Source of the DNA: Eledone cirrhosa
Taxonomy: Eukaryota
Reading direction: 5' to 3'
Length of the DNA: 64,000 nt
Assembly (NCBI GenBank): GCA_964016885.1
Contig: OZ024750.1
Span: 39,494,001-39,558,000, forward strand
Below are positions 10,975 to 61,038 of the stretch, piece by piece; position 1 is the first letter of the stretch, and each line of letters starts with the position of its first letter. The translations under genes were made by a program, and so were the position numbers. The notes under the pieces are model-generated. The model did no database searches and was not told the origin of the DNA. It saw only the letters and a program-made list of their open reading frames with translations.

Positions 10975-12367
10975 TGTGTGTAGACAGTTTAAATCTACAC
11001 ATTTCGCTGTGTAGACAGCTTATATCTACACATTTCACTGTGTAGACAGCTTATATCTACACATTTCTCTGGGTAGACAGCTTATATATACACATTTTAC
11101 TGTGTAGACAGTTTAAATCTACACATTTCACTGTGTAGACAGCTTATATCTACACATTTCACTGTGTAGACAGCTTATATCTACACATTTCTCTGGGTAG
11201 ACAGCTTATATATACACATTTCACTGTGTAGACAGCTTATATCTACACATTTCGCTGTGTAGACAGCTTATATCTACACATTTCACTGTGTAGACAGCTT
11301 ATATCTACACATTTCATTGTGTAGACAGCTTATATCTACACATTTTACTGTGTGTAGACAGCTTATATCTACACATTTCATTATGTAGACAGCTTATATC
11401 TACACATTTTACTGTGTGTAGACAGCTTATATCTACACATTTCGCTGTGTAGACAGCTTATATCTACACATTTCGCTGTGTAGACAGCTTATATCTACAC
11501 ATTTCATTGTGTAGACAGCTTATATCTACACATTTCATTGTGTAGACAGCTTATATCTACACATTTCACTGTGTGTAGACAGCTTATATTTTCACATTTC
11601 ACTGTGTAGACAGCTTATATTTTCACATTTCACTGTGTGTAGACAGCTTATATCTACACATTTCACTGTGTAGACGGCTTATATTTTCAGATTTCACTGT
11701 GTGTAGACAGCTTATATCTACACATTTCGCTGTGTAGACAGCTTATATCTACACATTTCACTGTGTGTAGACAGCTTATATCTACACATTTCACTGTGTA
11801 GACAGCTTATATTTTCACATTTCACTGTGTGTAGACAGCTTATATCTACACATTTCACTGTGTGTAGACAGCTTATATTTTCATATTTCACTGTGTAGAC
11901 AGCTTATATCTACACATTTCACTGTGTAGACAGCTTATATTTTCATATTTCACTGTGTGTAGACAGCTTATATCTACACATTTCACTGTGTGTAGACAGC
12001 TTATATCTACACATTTCACTGTGTGTAGACAGCTTATATCTACACATTTCACTGTGTGTAGACAGCTTATATCTACACATTTCACTGTGTGTAGACAGCT
12101 TATATCTACACATTTCACTGTGTGTAGACAGCTTATATCTACACATTTCACTGTGTAGACAGGTTGTATCTACACATTTCACTGTAGACAGCTTATATCT
12201 ACACATTTCACTGTGTAGACTGTTTATATCTACACATTTCACTGTGTAGACTGTTTATATCTACACATTTCCCTGTGTAGACAGCTTGTATCTACACATT
12301 TCCCTGTGTAGACAGCTTGTATCTACACATTTACCTGTGTAGACAGCTTATATCTACACATTTCACT
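10975..12367. repeat. Minisatellite, 31/33-bp unit TGTAGACAGCTTATATCTACACATTTCACTG(TG), ~44 copies
   Basis: Direct reading; each unit contains the inverted repeat TGTGTAGA...TCTACACA. Confidence 0.97.
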
Positions 12368-50537: not shown

Positions 50538-52280
50538 ATATCACTGAGGTAGCTATGGTATAGTTTACTGATATCTACCACAGTATCTAGGTTGATATCA
50601 CTGAGGAGCTATGGTATATGTTGATATCTACCACAGTACCTGGGTTGATATCACTGAGGTAGCTATGGTATATGTTGTTATCTACCACAGTACCTGGGCT
50701 GATATCGCTGAGGTAGCTATGGTATAGTTTACTGATATCTACCACAGTATCTAGGTTGATATCACTGAGGAGCTATGGTATATGTTGATATCTACCACAG
50801 TATCTAAGTTAAGTTGATATCACTGAGGAGCTATGGTATATGTTGATATCTACCACAGTACCTGGGTTGATATCACTGAGGTAGCTATGGTATATGTTGA
50901 TATCTACCACAGTATCTAGGTTGATACCACTGACGTAGCTATGGCATATGTTGATATCTACCACAGTGTCTCGGTTGATACCACTGAGGTAGCTATGGTA
51001 TATGTTGATATCTACTACAATATCTGGGTTGATATCACTGAGGGAGCTATGGTATATGTTGATATCTACCACAGTATCTGGGTTGATATCACTGAGGTAG
51101 CTATGGTATATGTTGTTGATATCTACTACAATGTCTGGGTTGATATCACAGAGGTAGCTATGGTATATGTTGATATCTACTACAGTGTCTGGGTTGATAT
51201 TCCTGAGGTAGCTATGGTATATCTTGATATCTACTACAGTGTCTGGGCTGATATCATTGAGGTAGCTATGGTATATCTTGATATTTACCACAGTGTCTCG
51301 GTTGATATCACTGAGGTAGCTATGGTATATGTTGATATCTACCACAGTATCTAGGCTGATATCACAGAGGTAGCTATGGTATATGTTGATATCTACTACA
51401 GTGTCTGGGCTGATATCACTGAGGTAGCTATGGTATATGTTGATATCTACCACAATATCTCGGTTGATATCACTGAGATAGTTATGGTATATGTTGTTGA
51501 TATCTACCACAGTATCTGGGTTGATATCACTGAGGTATCTATGGTATATGTTGTTATCTACCACACTATCTAGGTTGATATCCCTGAGGTAGCTATGGTA
51601 TATGTTGTTGATATCTACTACAGTATCTGGGTTGATATCACTGAGGTAGCTATGGTATATGTTGATATCTACCACAGTATCTAGGCTGATATCACTGAGG
51701 TAGTTATGGTATATGTTGATATCTACCACAATATCTGGGTTGATATCACTGAGGTAGCTATGGTATATGTTGTTGATATCTACCACAGTACCTGGGCTGA
51801 TATCACTGAGGTAGCTATGGTATATGTTGATATCTACCACAGTACCTGGGCTGATATCGCTGAGGTATCTATGGTATATGTTGTTATCTACCACACTATC
51901 TAGGTTGATATCCCTGAGGTAGCTATGGTATATGTTGTTGATATCTACTACAGTATCTGGGTTGATATCACTGAGGTAGCTATGGTATATGTTGATATCT
52001 ACCACAGTATCTAGGCTGATATCACTGAGGTAGTTATGGTATATGTTGATATCTACCACAATATCTGGGTTGATATCACTGAGGTAGCTATGGTATATGT
52101 TGTTGATATCTACCACAGTACCTGGGCTGATATCACTGAGGTAGCTATGGTATATGTTGATATCTACCACAGTACCTGGGCTGATATCGCTGAGGTAGCT
52201 ATGGTATATGTTGATATCTACCGCACTATCTAGGTTGATATCACTGAGGTAGCTATGGTATATGTTGATGATATCTACAC
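50538..52280. repeat. Minisatellite, 54/57-bp unit, ~32 copies, with a 330-bp higher-order repeat
   Basis: Unit GATATCACTGAGGTAGCTATGGTATATGTTGATATCTACCACAGTATCTGGGTT. Confidence 0.97.
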
Positions 52281-53699: not shown

Positions 53700-54736
53700 G
53701 AGATAGATAGACAGAGATATATAGATAGATAGATAGAGAGACAGATAGATAGATAGAGAGATAGATAGATGGAGGTAGATGGATGGATAGATAGGTAGAT
53801 AGAATGATGGGTAGATAGCAATATATAGATAGAGTTAGATAGATAGATAGAGAGATAGCGATATAAGATAGTTACATAGATATATATCTATATATATATA
53901 TAGAGAGAGAGAGGGAGAGATAGGTAGATATATATATATTTATAGAGAGAGAGAGAGGGAGAGATGGGTAGATAGAGATATTGAGAGAGAGATAGAGGGA
54001 TAAACAGAGAGAGAGGGAGAGAGATTGAAAGACACATCCATCCATTCATACATAAATATATATATATATATATATACATACATATATACAGACACAGAGA
54101 CAGACAAACTCATAGATAGAAAGATAGATAGATAGATAGATAAATACATGGACAGATATATATATATGACAGAGAGAGGTAGATAGATAGATAGATAGAT
54201 AGATGGAGAGAGAGAGGTAGATAGATAGATAGATAGATAGATGGAGAGAGAGAAAGACTTGGTGGTATTGTTGGGAGCGGGAAATAAAGAAGGCAAGAAA
54301 AAAAAAAGCAAGACTAAAATTGAGGAGATGGTGTGATAGAGAAAATTATGGGTTGCCATCTTGGGATGTTTCGTTTATTGGTCTAACATTAAACGTCTTC
54401 AGAGAGTTTTGGATGTTCTACTGACATAACCAGCTATTAGCAATGGCGAAGACCATGGAACGGGAAGTAACAATATAAATAACAGTGGCGTGGGAGTGAA
54501 TCAGTGGCGGTAATTAATCTATCTATCTATCTATCTCTCTATCTATCTATCTATCTATCTATCTCTCTCTCTCTCTATCTATCTATCTTATTCTATCTTA
54601 TTCTACCTATCTATCTAACTACACAATGTTCATGTAAAACCCCCGCCGTCACGTCTTGTAACATCCCATTTCTTGTACGCCCTTGTGGCAAATAAAAAAA
54701 GATATTTGTCTGTTTGTCTATCTGTCTGTTTGTCTG

Positions 54737-54790
<54 letters not shown>

Positions 54791-54920
54791 CCCTTTGTAT
54801 TTGTCCCCTTCCTTTGCGCCCCTGTGGCTAATAAAGAAACATATCTATCTATCTATCTATATGTATGACTGTATGTGCCACCGAACAATTACAAGTGACA
54901 CAAAGAGCGAAAGAGGAAGC

Positions 54921-55930: not shown

Positions 55931-56034
55931 TAAGTATTACAATTAAAAAGAATTAATAAGGATTAAAAACTAAAAATTAAAGATTTAAAATTAAGAGGTA
56001 AGTTTTTTCATCTTCCTTGTTGAGAAGGAGACTG

Positions 56035-56121
<87 letters not shown>

Positions 56122-56125
<4 letters not shown>

Positions 56126-56455
56126 TCATCATCATCATCATCATTTTACGTCCGCTTTTCCCTGCTTGCAAGGGTGGGACGGGAACTGATTCTGGCTTGA
56201 TTTCTACAGCTGGATGCCCTTCCTAACACCAACCTCATTTACAGTGAGGGCTGGGTGCTTTTTTGCCGTGGCACCTACACGACCACTTTACAGTGGAATG
56301 ACCACTTTGCATCTCATTTCTACAGCTGAGTAAACTGGAGCAATGTGAAATAAAGTGTCTTGCTCAAGGAAACAACACATCACCCGGTCAGAGAATTGAA
56401 CTCACAACCTTTCGATTGCAAGCCCAATGCTCTAACCACTAAGCCACGTGCCTCC
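56122..56455 (-). mobile_element. Full-length SINE family A
   Basis: Reverse complement of the 18626 copy, with a (CAT)n tail. Confidence 0.9.
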
Positions 56456-56497
56456 ATTATATATATATATATTGTTACTCCACGGTAATACAATATC

Positions 56498-56560
56498 TTA
56501 CGCTACTCAGAGTTTCGCCATGTACTCCGTGTAAACAAATTTCTCAATCATCAGGCCTAA
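56498..56560 (-). ncRNA. Hammerhead-like motif (stem II poor)
   Basis: TTAGGC-CTGATGA-...-GAAA-CTCtGAG-TA-GCGTAA. Confidence 0.4.
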
Positions 56561-56885
56561 TCATACATCAGATCGATATTATTTCTCCATTTCTGTAGTG
56601 TAAGATATACCCCCATTGTTCTGTAACTCACACACACTCACACACAAACTCTCACACACTTACACACACTCACCACAATCACACACACACACACCTAAAT
56701 AGACATACACACTCACACACAGTCACACACACTCACACACACCTACATAGACACATACACACTCACACACACTCACACACACTTACCCCTCCCCCTCCCA
56801 CCATATAAGAAATTAAGAAATACATGATTTACTGATTCAATTTCGTGCGAATAAAAGTTTTGTCTGGTATTGTGATGGGTTTGTG

Positions 56886-56938
<53 letters not shown>

Positions 56939-57083
56939 ATTAATACAATAACAGAGATAGCTTAAAGCTAAATTCTGACTGGTAACCATCTCACTCAACA
57001 AACATTAGGTTATATGTTAGTATAAACCTAATTTAAGTGTTTGGGGTGCTAACTATATGTATTATGTGGAAAGCCAGTTGTAT

Positions 57084-57136
<53 letters not shown>

Positions 57137-57189
57137 AACAGACACATATATATTCATACTCACACACACATATCTATCTATCTATCCAT

Positions 57190-59601
57190 ACCTCGACGGC
57201 CTGCCGCGTCTCTCGAACAAAGAGGCAGAGTCCTGCGAGGGACCAATCTCGGCTGATGAGATCGGAGATGCGCTGAGCCAATGCAGCAGACGCAAATCTC
57301 CAGGTCTCGATGGTATACCTTACGAACTTTATTTAGCAATGCCGGTCTTCTTCTCCGAACTCCTCGAAGCGGTCTACTGCAATTGGCAGCAGAACGGGAG
57401 AATTCCTTGTTCTGTAGCCAAGGGCGTAGTCACGCTGGTGAGGAAGGACGAGAACAAGGGGGATAGTATAAATAATTTTCGGCCCATAACCCTGCTAAAC
57501 ACAGAGTTAAAGATTTTGGCCAAGGTGTTAGCAAAGAGGTTGGCGCTTGTCGTGGGTGGCCTGGTGGGAGATGCGCAGACATGTGCTATCCCATCCAGGT
57601 CCATTCACGATAACCTCCACCTCATGCGATACATCATAGAGAGGGTTGGCAACAAACCCGGCTTCGGTGGGGCCCTGATCAACTTGGATCAGTCTAAGGC
57701 CTTCGATAGGGTCGACCATGGTTACCTGGATGCGGTGCTAGCGGCGGCTGGGTTCGGTCCTGTTTTCAGAGGCTGGATCACTGCCCTACATAGCAACCAC
57801 ATCTGTTCTAGGATCAAGGTGAACGGCTACCTTTCGAAGCCGTTCGAAATCACACGATCCATTCGACAGGGGTGCCCTCTCTCCTCCCTTCTGTACGTAT
57901 TGACTCTCGAGCCTTTACTGAGGAAGTTGGAGTTGTTGCAGGGTATCCCCCTGGAACCAGGATTGAGCAAAGCGGTGTCGGCCTACGCCGATGACGTAAC
58001 AGTAATGGTATCAACCGACTCGGAGATCGAGGCGATCGGTACCTTACTGGAGGAGTACGAAAGGTTGTCAGGAGCGAAACTGAACCGGGAAAAATCCATC
58101 GGGCTGCAACTCGGAACGTGGAGAGGCAAACCGATGCCTCCTGACGGTGTCGTCGGACACTGGACGGAGGGCCCGGTAAAGTTGCTTGGGGTCTGGTTTG
58201 GACCGGACCTCCAGGTGGAAAAGAACTGGAACGAGGTTACGAACAAGGTGTTTGCACTAACCCAGAAATGGGCCAAGTGTAAGCTGTCCCTAAAAGGCCG
58301 GGCGGAGGTGGCGAACATTTACATAGCGTCCGTCACTTACTACCGCCTGACTGTCGTGCCTTGCCCTAAGGAAACACTCACCACCATGGAACGCATGCTC
58401 TTCCAATTTCTTTGGAAGAAGCGTCCTCCTATGGTGAGAAGATCCATCTGCTGCCAACAACCTTCGAAAGGAGGGCTGGGGATGCCGTGGTTGATGATGC
58501 GTAGGCACGCATTAAGGCTACGGCACCTACAGGTATTCCTCACTGGTCAACCGGTGTGGGCTCCGTTCGTGAAACGAGCCTTTCCGAGACTCGTCTCACT
58601 CACCGAGCTACAGTCCTGGGTCAAGCAAAGATCCGGAAAACTGGGAGACTGGCACACTGAGTGTGCTCAGGCGCTCAGGGCTCTCTGGCAAGCGGGCCGG
58701 GCCATCGGTGGAGAATCCACCTCATCATTCTATAGAGGGCTGGTGGCTAGCAGGGGCGATGACACCCTTGGAGAGTCGCTGGACATGGAGGAAGACGAAC
58801 TGGCCAGCCTGTTCGGTAGGACTTTCGGCCCAGGACCAATGGACAACTTCCAGAAGTCACTGGCCTGGCAGTGCTACCGAGGGGCTCTACCCGTTCGAGA
58901 GAGGCTCTACAGACACGGGCGCCCGGGCAGGGATCCCTCAAAAAAGATTTGCCCTAGATGCGTGCGTCACGAAGAAACCGTGGCGCACGCATTGGTGCAA
59001 TGTCCGGGCGTGGCTGATCTGTGGGGCTACGCCGAACAACTGCTGTCGCGGGTGGCGCCGATTAAATTGACCGCCGAGTCCGTGATGACAATCAAACCGC
59101 CTCCCCTCTTCACAAAGGAAGCAAAGGCGGTTTTTCTGTGCGTAATAGCCATGTTGAAAGAGGTTGTTTGGTGGACACGATTGAAAGGTCTGAGGTCAGG
59201 CAACTTCCTCTCTGGCCATAGTCTGGTCTACTTCTTCCGATATCACTTCGGAAGAAGGATAAGAATGGAGAGAGAGGTGCTTGGCCACAGGCAGTTTTAT
59301 GAAAGGTGGGTGATAGTGGCGAGAATGGCTCGTGTAAATGGGCCTTCTCTGTATACCATCCTGTAGGTAAAGAAGTAAAGGAGAGGGGAGCACCTTCTCC
59401 ATGTGCTCCCCGGGCAAAGGATTGCACACTTTTTCGGGGGTGTGTGCAACCCCCATCACGTCCCCTCCCTTTTGAGGTTATTTTCGATTATTTTCATGTT
59501 ACACCCTTTTTACTCGATTATATGTAAACTCCCCCTTTGTATTTGTCCCTTCTTTTTATGCCTTTATGGTAAATAAAGAAATCTATCTATATATATATCT
59601 A
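57190..59601 (+). mobile_element. Young 5'-truncated L1/Tx1-type LINE (RT plus zf-RVT, ORF open to 59366, 3' UTR, ATCT tail)
   Basis: [43 protein letters not shown] and CPRC..EETVAHALVQC are present; the endonuclease is missing. The sequence is GC-rich with no stops. Confidence 0.95.
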
Positions 59602-59603
59602 AA

Positions 59604-61038
59604 CCCGGTAAAGTTGCTTGGGGTCTGGTTTGGACCGGACCTCCAGGTGGAAAAGAACTGGAACGAGGTTACGAACAAGGTGTTTGCACTAACCCAGAAA
59701 TGGGCCAAGTGTAAGCTGTCCCTAAAAGGCCGGGCGGAGGTGGCGAACATTTACATAGCGTCCGTCACTTACTACCGCCTGACTGTCGTGCCTTGCCCTA
59801 AGGAAACACTCACCACCATGGAACGCATGCTCTTCCAATTTCTTTGGAAGAAGCGTCCTCCTATGGTGAGAAGATCCATCTGCTGCCAACAACCGTCGAA
59901 AGGAGGGCTGGGGATGCCGTGGTTGATGATGCGTAGACACGCATTAAGGCTACGGCACCTACAGGTATTCCTCACTGGTCAACCGGTGTGGGCTCCGTTC
60001 GTGAAACGAGCCTTTCCGAGACTCGTCTCACTCACCGAGCTACAGTCCTGGGTCAAGCAAAGATCCGAAAAACTGGGAGACTGGCACACTGAGTGTGCTC
60101 AGGCGCTCAGGGCTCTCTGGCAAGCGGGCCAGGCCATCGGTGGAGAATCCACCTCATCATTCTATAGAGGGCTGGTGGCTAGCAGGGGCGATGACACCCT
60201 TGGAGAGTCGCTGGACATGGAAGAAGACGAACTGGCCAGCCTGTTCGGTAGGACTTTCGGCCCAGGACCAATGGACAACTTCCAGAAGTCACTGGCCTGG
60301 CAGTGCTACCGAGGGGCTCTACCCGTTCGAGAGAGGCTCTACAGACACGGGCGCCCGGGCAGGGATCCCTCAAAAAAGATTTGCCCTAGATGCGTGCGTC
60401 ACGAAAAAACCGTAGCGCACGCATTGGTGCAATGTCCGGGCGTGGCTGATCTGTGGGGCTACGCCGAACAACTGCTGTCGCGGGTGGCGCCGATTAAATT
60501 GACCGCCGAGTCCGTGATGACAATCAAACCGCCTCCCCTCTTCACAAAGGAAGCAAAGGCGGTTTTTCTGTGCGTAATAGCCATGTTGAAAGAGGTTGTT
60601 TGGTGGACACGATTGAAAGGTCTGAGGTCAGGCAACTTCCTCTCTGGCCATAGTCTGGTCTACTTCTTCCGATATCACTTCGGAAGAAGGATAAGAATGG
60701 AGAGAGAGGTGCTTGGCCACAGGCAGTTTTATGAAAGGTGGGTGATAGTGGCGAGAATGGCTCGTGTAAATGGGCCTTCTCTGTATACCATCCTGTAGGT
60801 AAAGAAGTAAAGGAGAGGGGAGCACCTTCTCCATGTGCTCCCCGGGCAAAGGATTGCACACTTTTTCGGGGGTGTGTGCAACCCCCATCACGTCCCCTCC
60901 CTTTTGAGGTTATTTTCGATTATTTTCATGTTACACCCTTTTTACTCGATTATATGTAAACTCCCCCTTTGTATTTGTCCCTTCTTTTTATGCCTTTATG
61001 GTAAATAAAGAAATCTATCTATATATATATCTATCTAT
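59604..61038 (+). mobile_element. Second, shorter tandem copy of the same LINE (equivalent to 58172 onward)
   Basis: Constant offset of 1432 nt, no indels, 7 substitutions by manual comparison. Confidence 0.95.

What the first reader, a model, noticed from the sequence alone, without database searches (positions are those of the whole stretch)
58463..60414. Editing-like signature between the two tandem LINE copies: six clustered, one-directional G/A differences
Seen: over ~1430 aligned nt I find 7 differences. Six are G in copy 1 versus A in copy 2 (58505/59937, 58636/60068, 58699/60131, 58790/60222, 58974/60406, 58982/60414), all within 480 nt, while the last ~620 nt are identical. Only one of the six is in a CpG context. 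Established: A-to-I-edited RNA reverse-transcribes as A>G, cytidine deamination of first-strand cDNA gives G>A, and coleoid cephalopods edit RNA heavily. Inference: one copy records either ADAR editing or an APOBEC-like defence fixed in the genome. The conserved E in the zf-RVT 'EET..H' motif favours G as ancestral at 58974, i.e. G>A in copy 2.
Basis: partly seen in the sequence, partly recalled or inferred. Interest (0 to 1): 0.72.

Follow-up and report, generated by a model that had tools for sequence, protein, structure and literature searches.

The report
LINE pair with recurring A-to-G sites
Two neighbouring jumping-gene copies do differ by six G/A letters, but three are common variants of the whole family and three are likely ordinary ageing mutations, so this is not one editing burst; two of the shared letters are inferred to have switched from A to G many times across the family, possibly because RNA edits were copied back into DNA.

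Summary
The seven differences are real, but they are not one editing event. Both copies are 5'-truncated insertions of a young L1-like LINE family (737 exact matches to one 25-mer).

Three of the six G/A sites are family polymorphisms (58699, 58790, 58982). At 58790 copy 2's A is the majority allele (653 of 737), so copy 1's G is derived. The other three G>A and one T>G are private to copy 2, within its lineage's load. Family-wide G>A/C>T is 1.01-1.13, not APOBEC-like.

By-product: 58790 and 58699 are the two most recurrent sites in 2.3 kb. They show at least 11 and 10 separate sense-strand A>G changes in 157 copies; the next site has 5. 58790 is unlinked from markers on both sides, and its G share does not rise with copy age. 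That points to change during retrotransposition: site-selective ADAR editing (about 0.4) or an RT error hot spot (about 0.35). No RNA test was possible.

The scan earlier noted ADAR-type hyper-edited RTE/CR1/Penelope copies on other DNA of this genome (unchecked).

The parts
57170..57185 (+). (TATC)n microsatellite at the 5' junction of copy 1, the family's usual insertion context
   Evidence: junction; 131 of 150 sampled copies with a visible 5' flank have a TATC/TA repeat in the last 30 nt
57185..59601 (+). Copy 1: 5'-truncated L1-like LINE (end of ORF2, 3' UTR, TATC/TA tail), youngest lineage, no private changes
   Evidence: identical to 5 other fetched copies over 57190-59569; 17 other copies identical over a 601-nt query among 40 scored
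57462..58193 (+). Reverse transcriptase domain (Pfam RVT_1)
   Evidence: E 2.7e-27, residues 91-334 of 57192-59366
58854..59024 (+). zf-RVT zinc-binding region of ORF2; holds the E codon at 58974
   Evidence: E 4.3e-6, residues 555-611
58699..58699 (+). Family polymorphism and recurrent A>G site (CAG Gln / CGG Arg); G in copy 1, older A in copy 2 (60131)
   Evidence: A in 49 of 96 and 44 of 80 copies; at least 10 A>G events in 157 copies
58790..58790 (+). Family polymorphism and most recurrent A>G site (GAA/GAG, silent); minority G in copy 1, majority A in copy 2 (60222)
   Evidence: G in 84 of 737 genome-wide; on all lineage backgrounds; at least 11 events in 157 copies
58982..58982 (+). Three-allele lineage marker (T old; A and G in young lineages; silent); G in copy 1, A in copy 2 (60414)
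   Evidence: T 53, G 31, A 14 of 98; T 43, G 23, A 13, C 1 of 80
59582..59603 (+). 20-nt TATC/TA stretch plus two extra A between the copies; the same 20 nt follow copy 2 (61014-61033), likely a target-site duplication
   Evidence: only 6 of 141 sampled tails start this way; the duplication reading is inference
59604..61033 (+). Copy 2: 5'-truncated copy of a slightly older young lineage (A-A-A at the three shared sites)
   Evidence: no other copy identical over 601 nt among 40 scored
59895..59895 (+). Private T>G of copy 2 (silent)
   Evidence: T in 93 of 93 and 80 of 80 sampled copies
59937..59937 (+). Private G>A of copy 2 (silent); A also occurs in older, more diverged subfamilies
   Evidence: G in 94 of 94 and 76 of 80; the A form is at 20 places, the 19 others 75-98% identical to copy 1
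60068..60068 (+). Private G>A of copy 2 (Gly>Glu)
   Evidence: G in 95 of 95 and 80 of 80; the exact A form is at 2 places in the genome
60406..60406 (+). Private G>A of copy 2 (Glu>Lys in zf-RVT)
   Evidence: G in 98 of 98 and 80 of 80; the exact A form is at 1 place

Best explanation
The two copies are likely separate insertions, from different source lineages of one young LINE family, into the same microsatellite, and their six G/A differences combine three alleles shared across the family with three G>A changes private to copy 2 that are likely ordinary mutations. Shown: the allele sharing, the privacy of four changes, the absence of a strong G>A strand bias, and the family's habit of landing in (TATC)n, often behind another copy. 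Inferred: copy 2 inserted first and aged (4 private changes in 1430 nt); copy 1, with none, inserted later just upstream. Two shared sites, 58790 and 58699, are recurrent sense-strand A>G hot spots (recurrence inferred from trees and linkage), and copy 1 carries the derived G at both. Their change most likely arises in the RNA-to-DNA step. I put site-selective ADAR editing of the element's RNA, fixed by target-primed reverse transcription, first (about 0.4), narrowly ahead of an RT misincorporation hot spot (about 0.35). The confidence figure is for the decomposition, not for the ADAR step.
For: Allele counts in two position-ordered samples of 100 and 80 copies and genome-wide pattern counts. 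Copy 2's 4 rare changes are reached by 5 of 44 other copies of its class; L038 also has 3 G>A of 4 and L147 has 3 of 3. G:C>A:T is the commonest private change on both strands: G>A 368, C>T 358 in 175 copies, ratio 1.01, p 0.88. There is no per-copy overdispersion (p 0.87, 56 copies). The longest run of rare same-class changes was G>A (3 or more) in 12 copies and C>T in 11 of 175. Shared ORF2 variants are mostly A/G anyway (30 against 6 C/T, p 3e-4). Target: 131 of 150 copies lie behind TATC/TA repeats and 27 of 150 behind a family 3' end. Hot spots: 11 and 10 A>G events against at most 5 at any other site and class, with a background mean of 0.24 per A. Markers either side of 58790 stay linked (D' 0.88-1.0) while 58790 has D' -0.41 to 0.10 with them. 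G share by age class is 4/19, 3/39, 0/30, 5/25 and 8/51 while private load falls from 0.40% to 0.05%. Neither hot spot has a 5' G, the base depleted upstream of edited sites (PMC5625713, passages). ADAR-type deaminase domains are in the genome.
Against: The pair is a tail event: 11 of 12,090 pairs match it. Only 1 of 44 other class members has 3 or more rare G>A (that class was partly picked for likeness to copy 2, which lowers its load). Tree-based terminal counts show a slight G>A excess (620 against 543, ratio 1.13, p 0.037). An earlier, similarity-selected set that included copy 2 gave 43 against 19. Against ADAR at the hot spots: without the ascertained sites A>G is not above T>C (126 against 107, p 0.21) and the AG context is matched by its mirror (47/147 against 41/157). 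Carriers of 58790G have no extra A>G (15 A>G against 35 T>C singletons), and young copies show a T>C excess (36 against 48, p 0.011). Octopus hyper-editing prefers a 3' A, not the 3' G seen here. The predicted partner of 58790 changes with the folding window and is never a C. The mid-age class has 0 of 30 G, and chimeric copies exist.
Confidence: 0.85

Rival explanations
1. First reader, APOBEC-like version: a cytidine deaminase attacked copy 2's first-strand cDNA, giving all six (or at least the three private) G>A changes in one event.
For: Three of four private changes are G>A and two lie in GA context. Slight family-wide G>A excess on trees (1.13, p 0.037), strongest in GA context (1.35-1.37, not significant).
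Against: Three of the six are shared alleles. Three changes are far below the 10 clustered G>A and the more than 10-fold strand bias of vertebrate DNA editing (PMC4866542, passages). The excess is the same in young and old copies (1.17, 1.12), whereas an insertion-time process should fade with age. No overdispersion. Pfam APOBEC_N found no match, 0 of 7 candidates (weak, as invertebrate deaminases may not fit that model).
Confidence: 0.05
2. First reader, ADAR version: copy 1 came from one hyper-edited transcript, so all six are A>G in copy 1.
For: Copy 1 has the derived G at 58699 and 58790.
Against: G is the family base at 58505, 58636 and 58974 (94/94, 95/95, 98/98). Copy 1 is identical to 5 other copies over 2.38 kb, so it inherited its haplotype. 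No hyper-edited copy among 175; the four with most A>G are diverged or chimeric and have many changes of all classes (exact-match anchors would miss copies edited at the anchor).
Confidence: 0.02
3. The recurrent A>G at 58790 and 58699 are sequence- or structure-dependent errors of the element's own reverse transcriptase (or of RNA polymerase II), for example slippage that copies the neighbouring G. No editing enzyme is involved.
For: Same strand-specific, per-insertion pattern as editing. Both sites are A followed by G. Other recurrent sites also copy the 3' neighbour (T>G at 59441, 5 events). No co-occurring A>G on the same copies.
Against: Copying of the 3' neighbour is not general: G>A before A 55/160 against 178/488 elsewhere. 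The two top sites are both A>G although A>G is about 11% of events. About 11% per site is far above RT error rates as I recall them (not from a call).
Confidence: 0.35
4. The apparent recurrence comes from template switching or short gene-conversion tracts that move a few original G alleles between lineages.
For: Chimeric copies with old 5' and young 3' parts, or the reverse, are in the sample (L175/L176, L088, L109). 58699 and 58880 are partly linked to their neighbours (D' about 0.5-0.9).
Against: Tracts would have to spare markers 91 and 90 nt away and leave balanced markers such as 58598 and 58982 linked (D' 1.0) while shuffling an 11% allele. Both alleles occur in 11 of 12 marker-defined groups (G-enriched set, groups partly nested).
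Confidence: 0.2
5. Assembly artefact: the tandem is a mis-joined pair of haplotypes, or the private alleles and scattered G alleles are polishing or base-calling errors.
For: Near-identical high-copy repeats are error-prone. No long read or same-animal read confirms the junction or the private alleles.
Against: The two copies have different 5' truncation points and belong to different family haplotypes found elsewhere. Head-to-tail neighbours are common (27 of 150). 58790G shows no significant contig-strand bias (51:33 against 335:318, p 0.11) and sits on old, uniquely marked copies where mis-mapped reads are unlikely.
Confidence: 0.07

Closest known systems
APOBEC DNA editing of LTR retrotransposons (Knisbacher and Levanon, PMC4866542; passages read)
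   Same: G versus A differences between two copies of one subfamily on the sense strand, found by pairwise alignment.
   Different: They require at least 10 clustered G>A, a consensus filter and strand bias, study LTR elements, and report none in 19 invertebrate genomes. Here there are six differences, the majority allele is A at 58790, the strand ratio is 1.01-1.13, and the element is non-LTR.
ADAR hyper-editing of repeat RNA, very high in octopus (Porath et al., PMC5625713; passages read)
   Same: Sense-strand A>G at sites without an upstream G, in repeat RNA predicted to fold strongly (z -5.6).
   Different: Two isolated sites that recur across genomic copies, not dense clusters on one molecule. 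The 3' base is G, whereas the invertebrate group prefers A. Seen in DNA only, with no RNA evidence.
L1-clade non-LTR retrotransposons (human LINE-1 ORF2p); Tx1-like microsatellite-targeting elements (label recalled, not tested)
   Same: Two ORFs; ORF2 is endonuclease, RT and zf-RVT; best PDB match is LINE-1 ORF2p (E 2e-51); 5' truncation; successive lineages with diagnostic alleles.
   Different: TATC/TA tail and target instead of poly(A), with frequent head-to-tail neighbours. Clade placement by tree was not done.

Membership tests
APOBEC-type DNA-edited retroelement | At least 10 clustered G>A against a source copy | tested here: not met
   6 in the pair, only 3 private; criterion from PMC4866542
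APOBEC-type DNA-edited retroelement | G is the family state and A derived at the sites | tested here: not met
   met at 58505, 58636, 58974; not at 58790 (A 653 of 737), 58699 (A older) or 58982 (T older)
APOBEC-type DNA-edited retroelement | Strong sense-strand G>A over C>T bias in the family | tested here: not met
   1.01 in singletons; 1.13, p 0.037, in tree-terminal counts, equal in young and old copies
APOBEC-type DNA-edited retroelement | Consistent deaminase motif | tested here: inconclusive
   2 of 3 private sites in GA context; family GA/TC ratio 1.35-1.37, not significant
APOBEC-type DNA-edited retroelement | A host AID/APOBEC-like gene | tested here: inconclusive
   APOBEC_N 0 of 7 candidates; one model only, searched exon by exon
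ADAR hyper-edited copy fixed in DNA | Dense cluster of private sense-strand A>G on one copy | tested here: not met
   copy 1 has no private change, copy 2 has no A>G, none among 175 copies
Site-selective ADAR edit captured by retrotransposition | Recurrent sense-strand A>G at the same site in independent lineages | tested here: met
   at least 11 and 10 events in 157 copies; 58790 unlinked from flanking markers
Site-selective ADAR edit captured by retrotransposition | Frequency independent of time spent in the genome | tested here: met
   58790 only: G share 4/19, 3/39, 0/30, 5/25, 8/51 from old to young; load of G and A carriers alike, p 0.36
Site-selective ADAR edit captured by retrotransposition | ADAR neighbour preference | tested here: inconclusive
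   no 5' G at either site, but 3' G where invertebrate hyper-editing prefers A; only two sites
Site-selective ADAR edit captured by retrotransposition | Site lies in a defined double-stranded RNA | tested here: inconclusive
   region folds at z -5.6; 58790 pairs with a U in 3 of 4 minimum-energy folds, a different U each time
Site-selective ADAR edit captured by retrotransposition | Edit present in RNA and dependent on ADAR | not testable with these tools
   needs stranded RNA reads and a knock-down; ADAR-type domains are present in the genome
L1-like non-LTR retrotransposon | ORF2 with apurinic-type endonuclease, RT and C-terminal zinc region, preceded by ORF1 | tested here: met
   on a full-length family copy; on copy 1
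Tx1 group | RT phylogeny with named Tx1 elements | not tested
   label recalled; the microsatellite target fits; papers seen as a search listing only

The most novel reading that the evidence does not exclude
This LINE family's RNA carries site-selective ADAR edits (at least 58790 and the Gln>Arg recoding site 58699) that reverse transcription writes into roughly one in ten new germline copies, generation after generation of source elements. Copy counts would then read out past germline editing levels, and an edited codon (58699 Arg) became the genomic state of the youngest lineage (49 of 51 copies).
Probability: 0.35. Interest if true: 0.7.

Novelty: new member of a known kind. Interest (0 to 1): 0.36.

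Why it matters
As flagged it is ordinary, and a caution: two-copy comparisons in a young family mix inherited and private changes, and here they mimic a one-directional editing cluster. If the two recurrent sites are ADAR edits, site-selective RNA editing (not only hyper-editing) feeds heritable change into an active LINE, including an amino-acid change. About 700 near-identical copies would make that directly testable against germline RNA-seq.

Tried and rejected
1. RNA and read checks. No RNA holder was listed. Laying contigs and reads on 57000-61300 mixed all family copies and could not phase the locus. At 100% likeness no contig of runs X1-X4 covered the private A at 60406; these may be other animals and contigs drop rare variants, so this is no evidence either way.

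2. Family-wide APOBEC-like bias. The early 43:19 G>A:C>T in 60 similarity-selected copies fell to 151:127, 235:216 and 368:358 in position-ordered samples.

3. A 3' G as ADAR support. Dropped after and the mirror control.

4. Quasi-palindrome or templated mutation. No near-perfect direct or inverted partner for either allele within 57185-59590 (best 10 of 13).

5. Tandem duplication of one insertion. Rejected, as the copies carry different haplotypes found elsewhere.

6. More hot spots in the 5' 3.5 kb. None above 6 events, mixed classes; A>G reached 5 at 57217 and 54138 and 4 at 56366 (TAG), 54187 and 54695 (element positions in copy-1 numbering).

7. Literature. Searches (listings and abstract starts only) gave no paper that, by title or abstract start, reports recurrent site-selective edits in genomic LINE copies. 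The library is incomplete, so this does not show absence. No supplements were read.

8. Rows left out. Four diverged or chimeric copies (L283, L292, L307, L315) were dropped (age table), 66, 71 and 73 but kept. Five tandem duplicates were dropped from sample 1 and after. 82 of 84 G copies were fetched.
Full report
Observation. At offset 1432 the two copies align without gaps over 1430 nt (58172-59601 and 59604-61033) with exactly the seven differences reported: T/G at 58463 and G/A at 58505, 58636, 58699, 58790, 58974 and 58982. Four are silent. Three change residues: 58636 Gly/Glu, 58699 Arg/Gln and 58974 Glu/Lys. Only 58699 is a CpG.

The element. Copy 1 encodes RVT_1 and zf-RVT. A full-length family copy is about 5.8 kb, with a 650-aa ORF1 and a 1156-aa endonuclease-RT-zf ORF2 that is closest to LINE-1 ORF2p among solved structures. 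The genome is 3.0 Gb, and one 25-mer has 737 exact matches. Of 150 sampled copies with a visible 5' flank, 131 lie behind a TATC/TA repeat and 27 behind another family 3' end, so adjacent copies are usual. The 20-nt stretch between the copies recurs after copy 2, likely a target-site duplication. Copy 1 equals five other fetched copies over 2.38 kb, while copy 2 has four rare changes. I infer that copy 2 is the older insertion.

Polarising the sites. I used two samples ordered by genome position: the first 100 matches to an anchor at 58790, and 80 further copies anchored at 58598, 40 per allele. At 58699, A was in 49 of 96 and 44 of 80. At 58790, A was in 90 of 100 and 67 of 80, and in 653 of 737 genome-wide. 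At 58982, T/G/A were 53/31/14 of 98 and 43/23/13 of 80. In the oldest class the bases are A, A and T. Copy 2's alleles at 58463, 58636 and 58974 were in no sampled copy, and 58505A was only in three sister-subfamily copies. Exact patterns find 58974A once, 58636A twice and 58505A 20 times, the 19 others in older subfamilies. The six G/A differences are therefore three shared alleles plus three private G>A.

Are the three private G>A a deaminase mark? Among 44 other copies of copy 2's class, 5 have four or more rare changes in the same interval and one has three G>A of four; another young copy has three of three. Their spread is not clustered (P 0.25). Singletons in 175 copies give G>A 368 and C>T 358 (ratio 1.01), with no overdispersion in the first sample. 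Tree-terminal counts give 620 against 543 (1.13, p 0.037), alike in young and old copies. Vertebrate DNA editing is called at 10 or more clustered G>A with a more than 10-fold bias (PMC4866542, passages). APOBEC_N had no match (weak).

How unusual is the pair? It is uncommon: 11 of 12,090 pairs, and 2 of 72 pairs with the same shared haplotypes. The background favours it, because shared ORF2 variants are 30 A/G against 6 C/T and C/T runs of five or more never occurred. By my count from the list, 16 against 6 of these are silent. ORF1 shows no such skew. Tolerance of G/A replacements such as Arg/Lys may explain part of it; the rest is unexplained.

The recurrent sites. 58790G is in 84 of 737 copies, and I fetched 82. 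It lies on backgrounds from the oldest to the youngest and beside A-bearing sisters across a tree built with that site masked. With polytomies counted once, 157 copies give at least 11 A>G events at 58790 and 10 at 58699. The next site has 5, and the background is 0.24 per A (site heterogeneity makes the Poisson figure too small). Markers on either side stay linked (D' 0.88-1.0) while 58790 is unlinked; 58699 is partly linked, D' 0.63-0.82 with those markers. The G share at 58790 does not grow with age: 4/19, 3/39, 0/30, 5/25 and 8/51 as private load falls eightfold. This fits a change made once per retrotransposition rather than over time in DNA (inference).

Which mechanism? For ADAR: the strand and class fit, neither site has a 5' G, the region folds strongly (z -5.6), and deaminase domains are present. 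Unchecked notes also report hyper-edited RTE, CR1 and Penelope copies elsewhere in this genome (leads only). Against: no general A>G excess outside these sites (126 against 107 T>C), no extra A>G on G carriers, and a T>C excess in young copies. The 3' base is G where invertebrate hyper-editing prefers A (PMC5625713, passages), and no stable partner strand is predicted. An RT error hot spot predicts the same genomic pattern, and chimeric copies show that recombination occurs. I put ADAR at about 0.4, RT or polymerase error at 0.35, conversion at 0.2 and artefact at 0.05.

Verdict. The locus is an ordinary pair of young LINE insertions. The part worth following is family-wide: two recurrent A>G sites, one of them a Gln>Arg change that is nearly fixed in the youngest lineage (49 of 51). 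Neither RNA nor long-read evidence was available. Papers: passages of PMC4866542 and PMC5625713; all others seen as search listings only.

Noticed in passing
family ORF2 (copy-1 numbering 56019-59072): Variants shared by six or more copies are 30 A/G against 6 C/T transitions on the sense strand (p 3e-4); ORF1 is balanced (16 against 19). Cause unknown.
   Followed up: partly
young family copies, whole element: Rare private T>C exceeds A>G on the sense strand in young copies (48 against 36, rate ratio 0.57, p 0.011) but not in old ones; could be polymerase error or antisense editing.
   Followed up: no
window 54649-54860: Two 3' ends of related LINE families, each followed by TATC-like repeats (family D12): the region is a repeated landing site.
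   Followed up: no
G000:C1 348917224-348935294 (L175-L177) and similar arrays: Full-length copies stand head to tail at about 5.8 kb spacing; some are chimeras of older 5' and younger 3' lineages.
   Followed up: partly
window 44721-45281 and 38418-39392, minus strand: Two open frames that read like exons of a polysaccharide or chitin deacetylase-like gene (resemblance recalled). Pfam gave no match for either piece. The LINE pair would lie about 12 kb upstream.
   Followed up: partly
window 40604-43550, 50538-52269, 10977-12367: Minisatellite arrays of 52-, 54- and 31-nt units (57, 32 and 44 copies).
   Followed up: no
window about 690-890: Assembly gap (run of N) next to an RT fragment on the minus strand and a 1.8-kb (TA)n tract.
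   Followed up: no
window 57701 and 59441: Other recurrent sites of different classes: 57701 carries all four bases across copies, and 59441 has five T>G events beside a G run.
   Followed up: no
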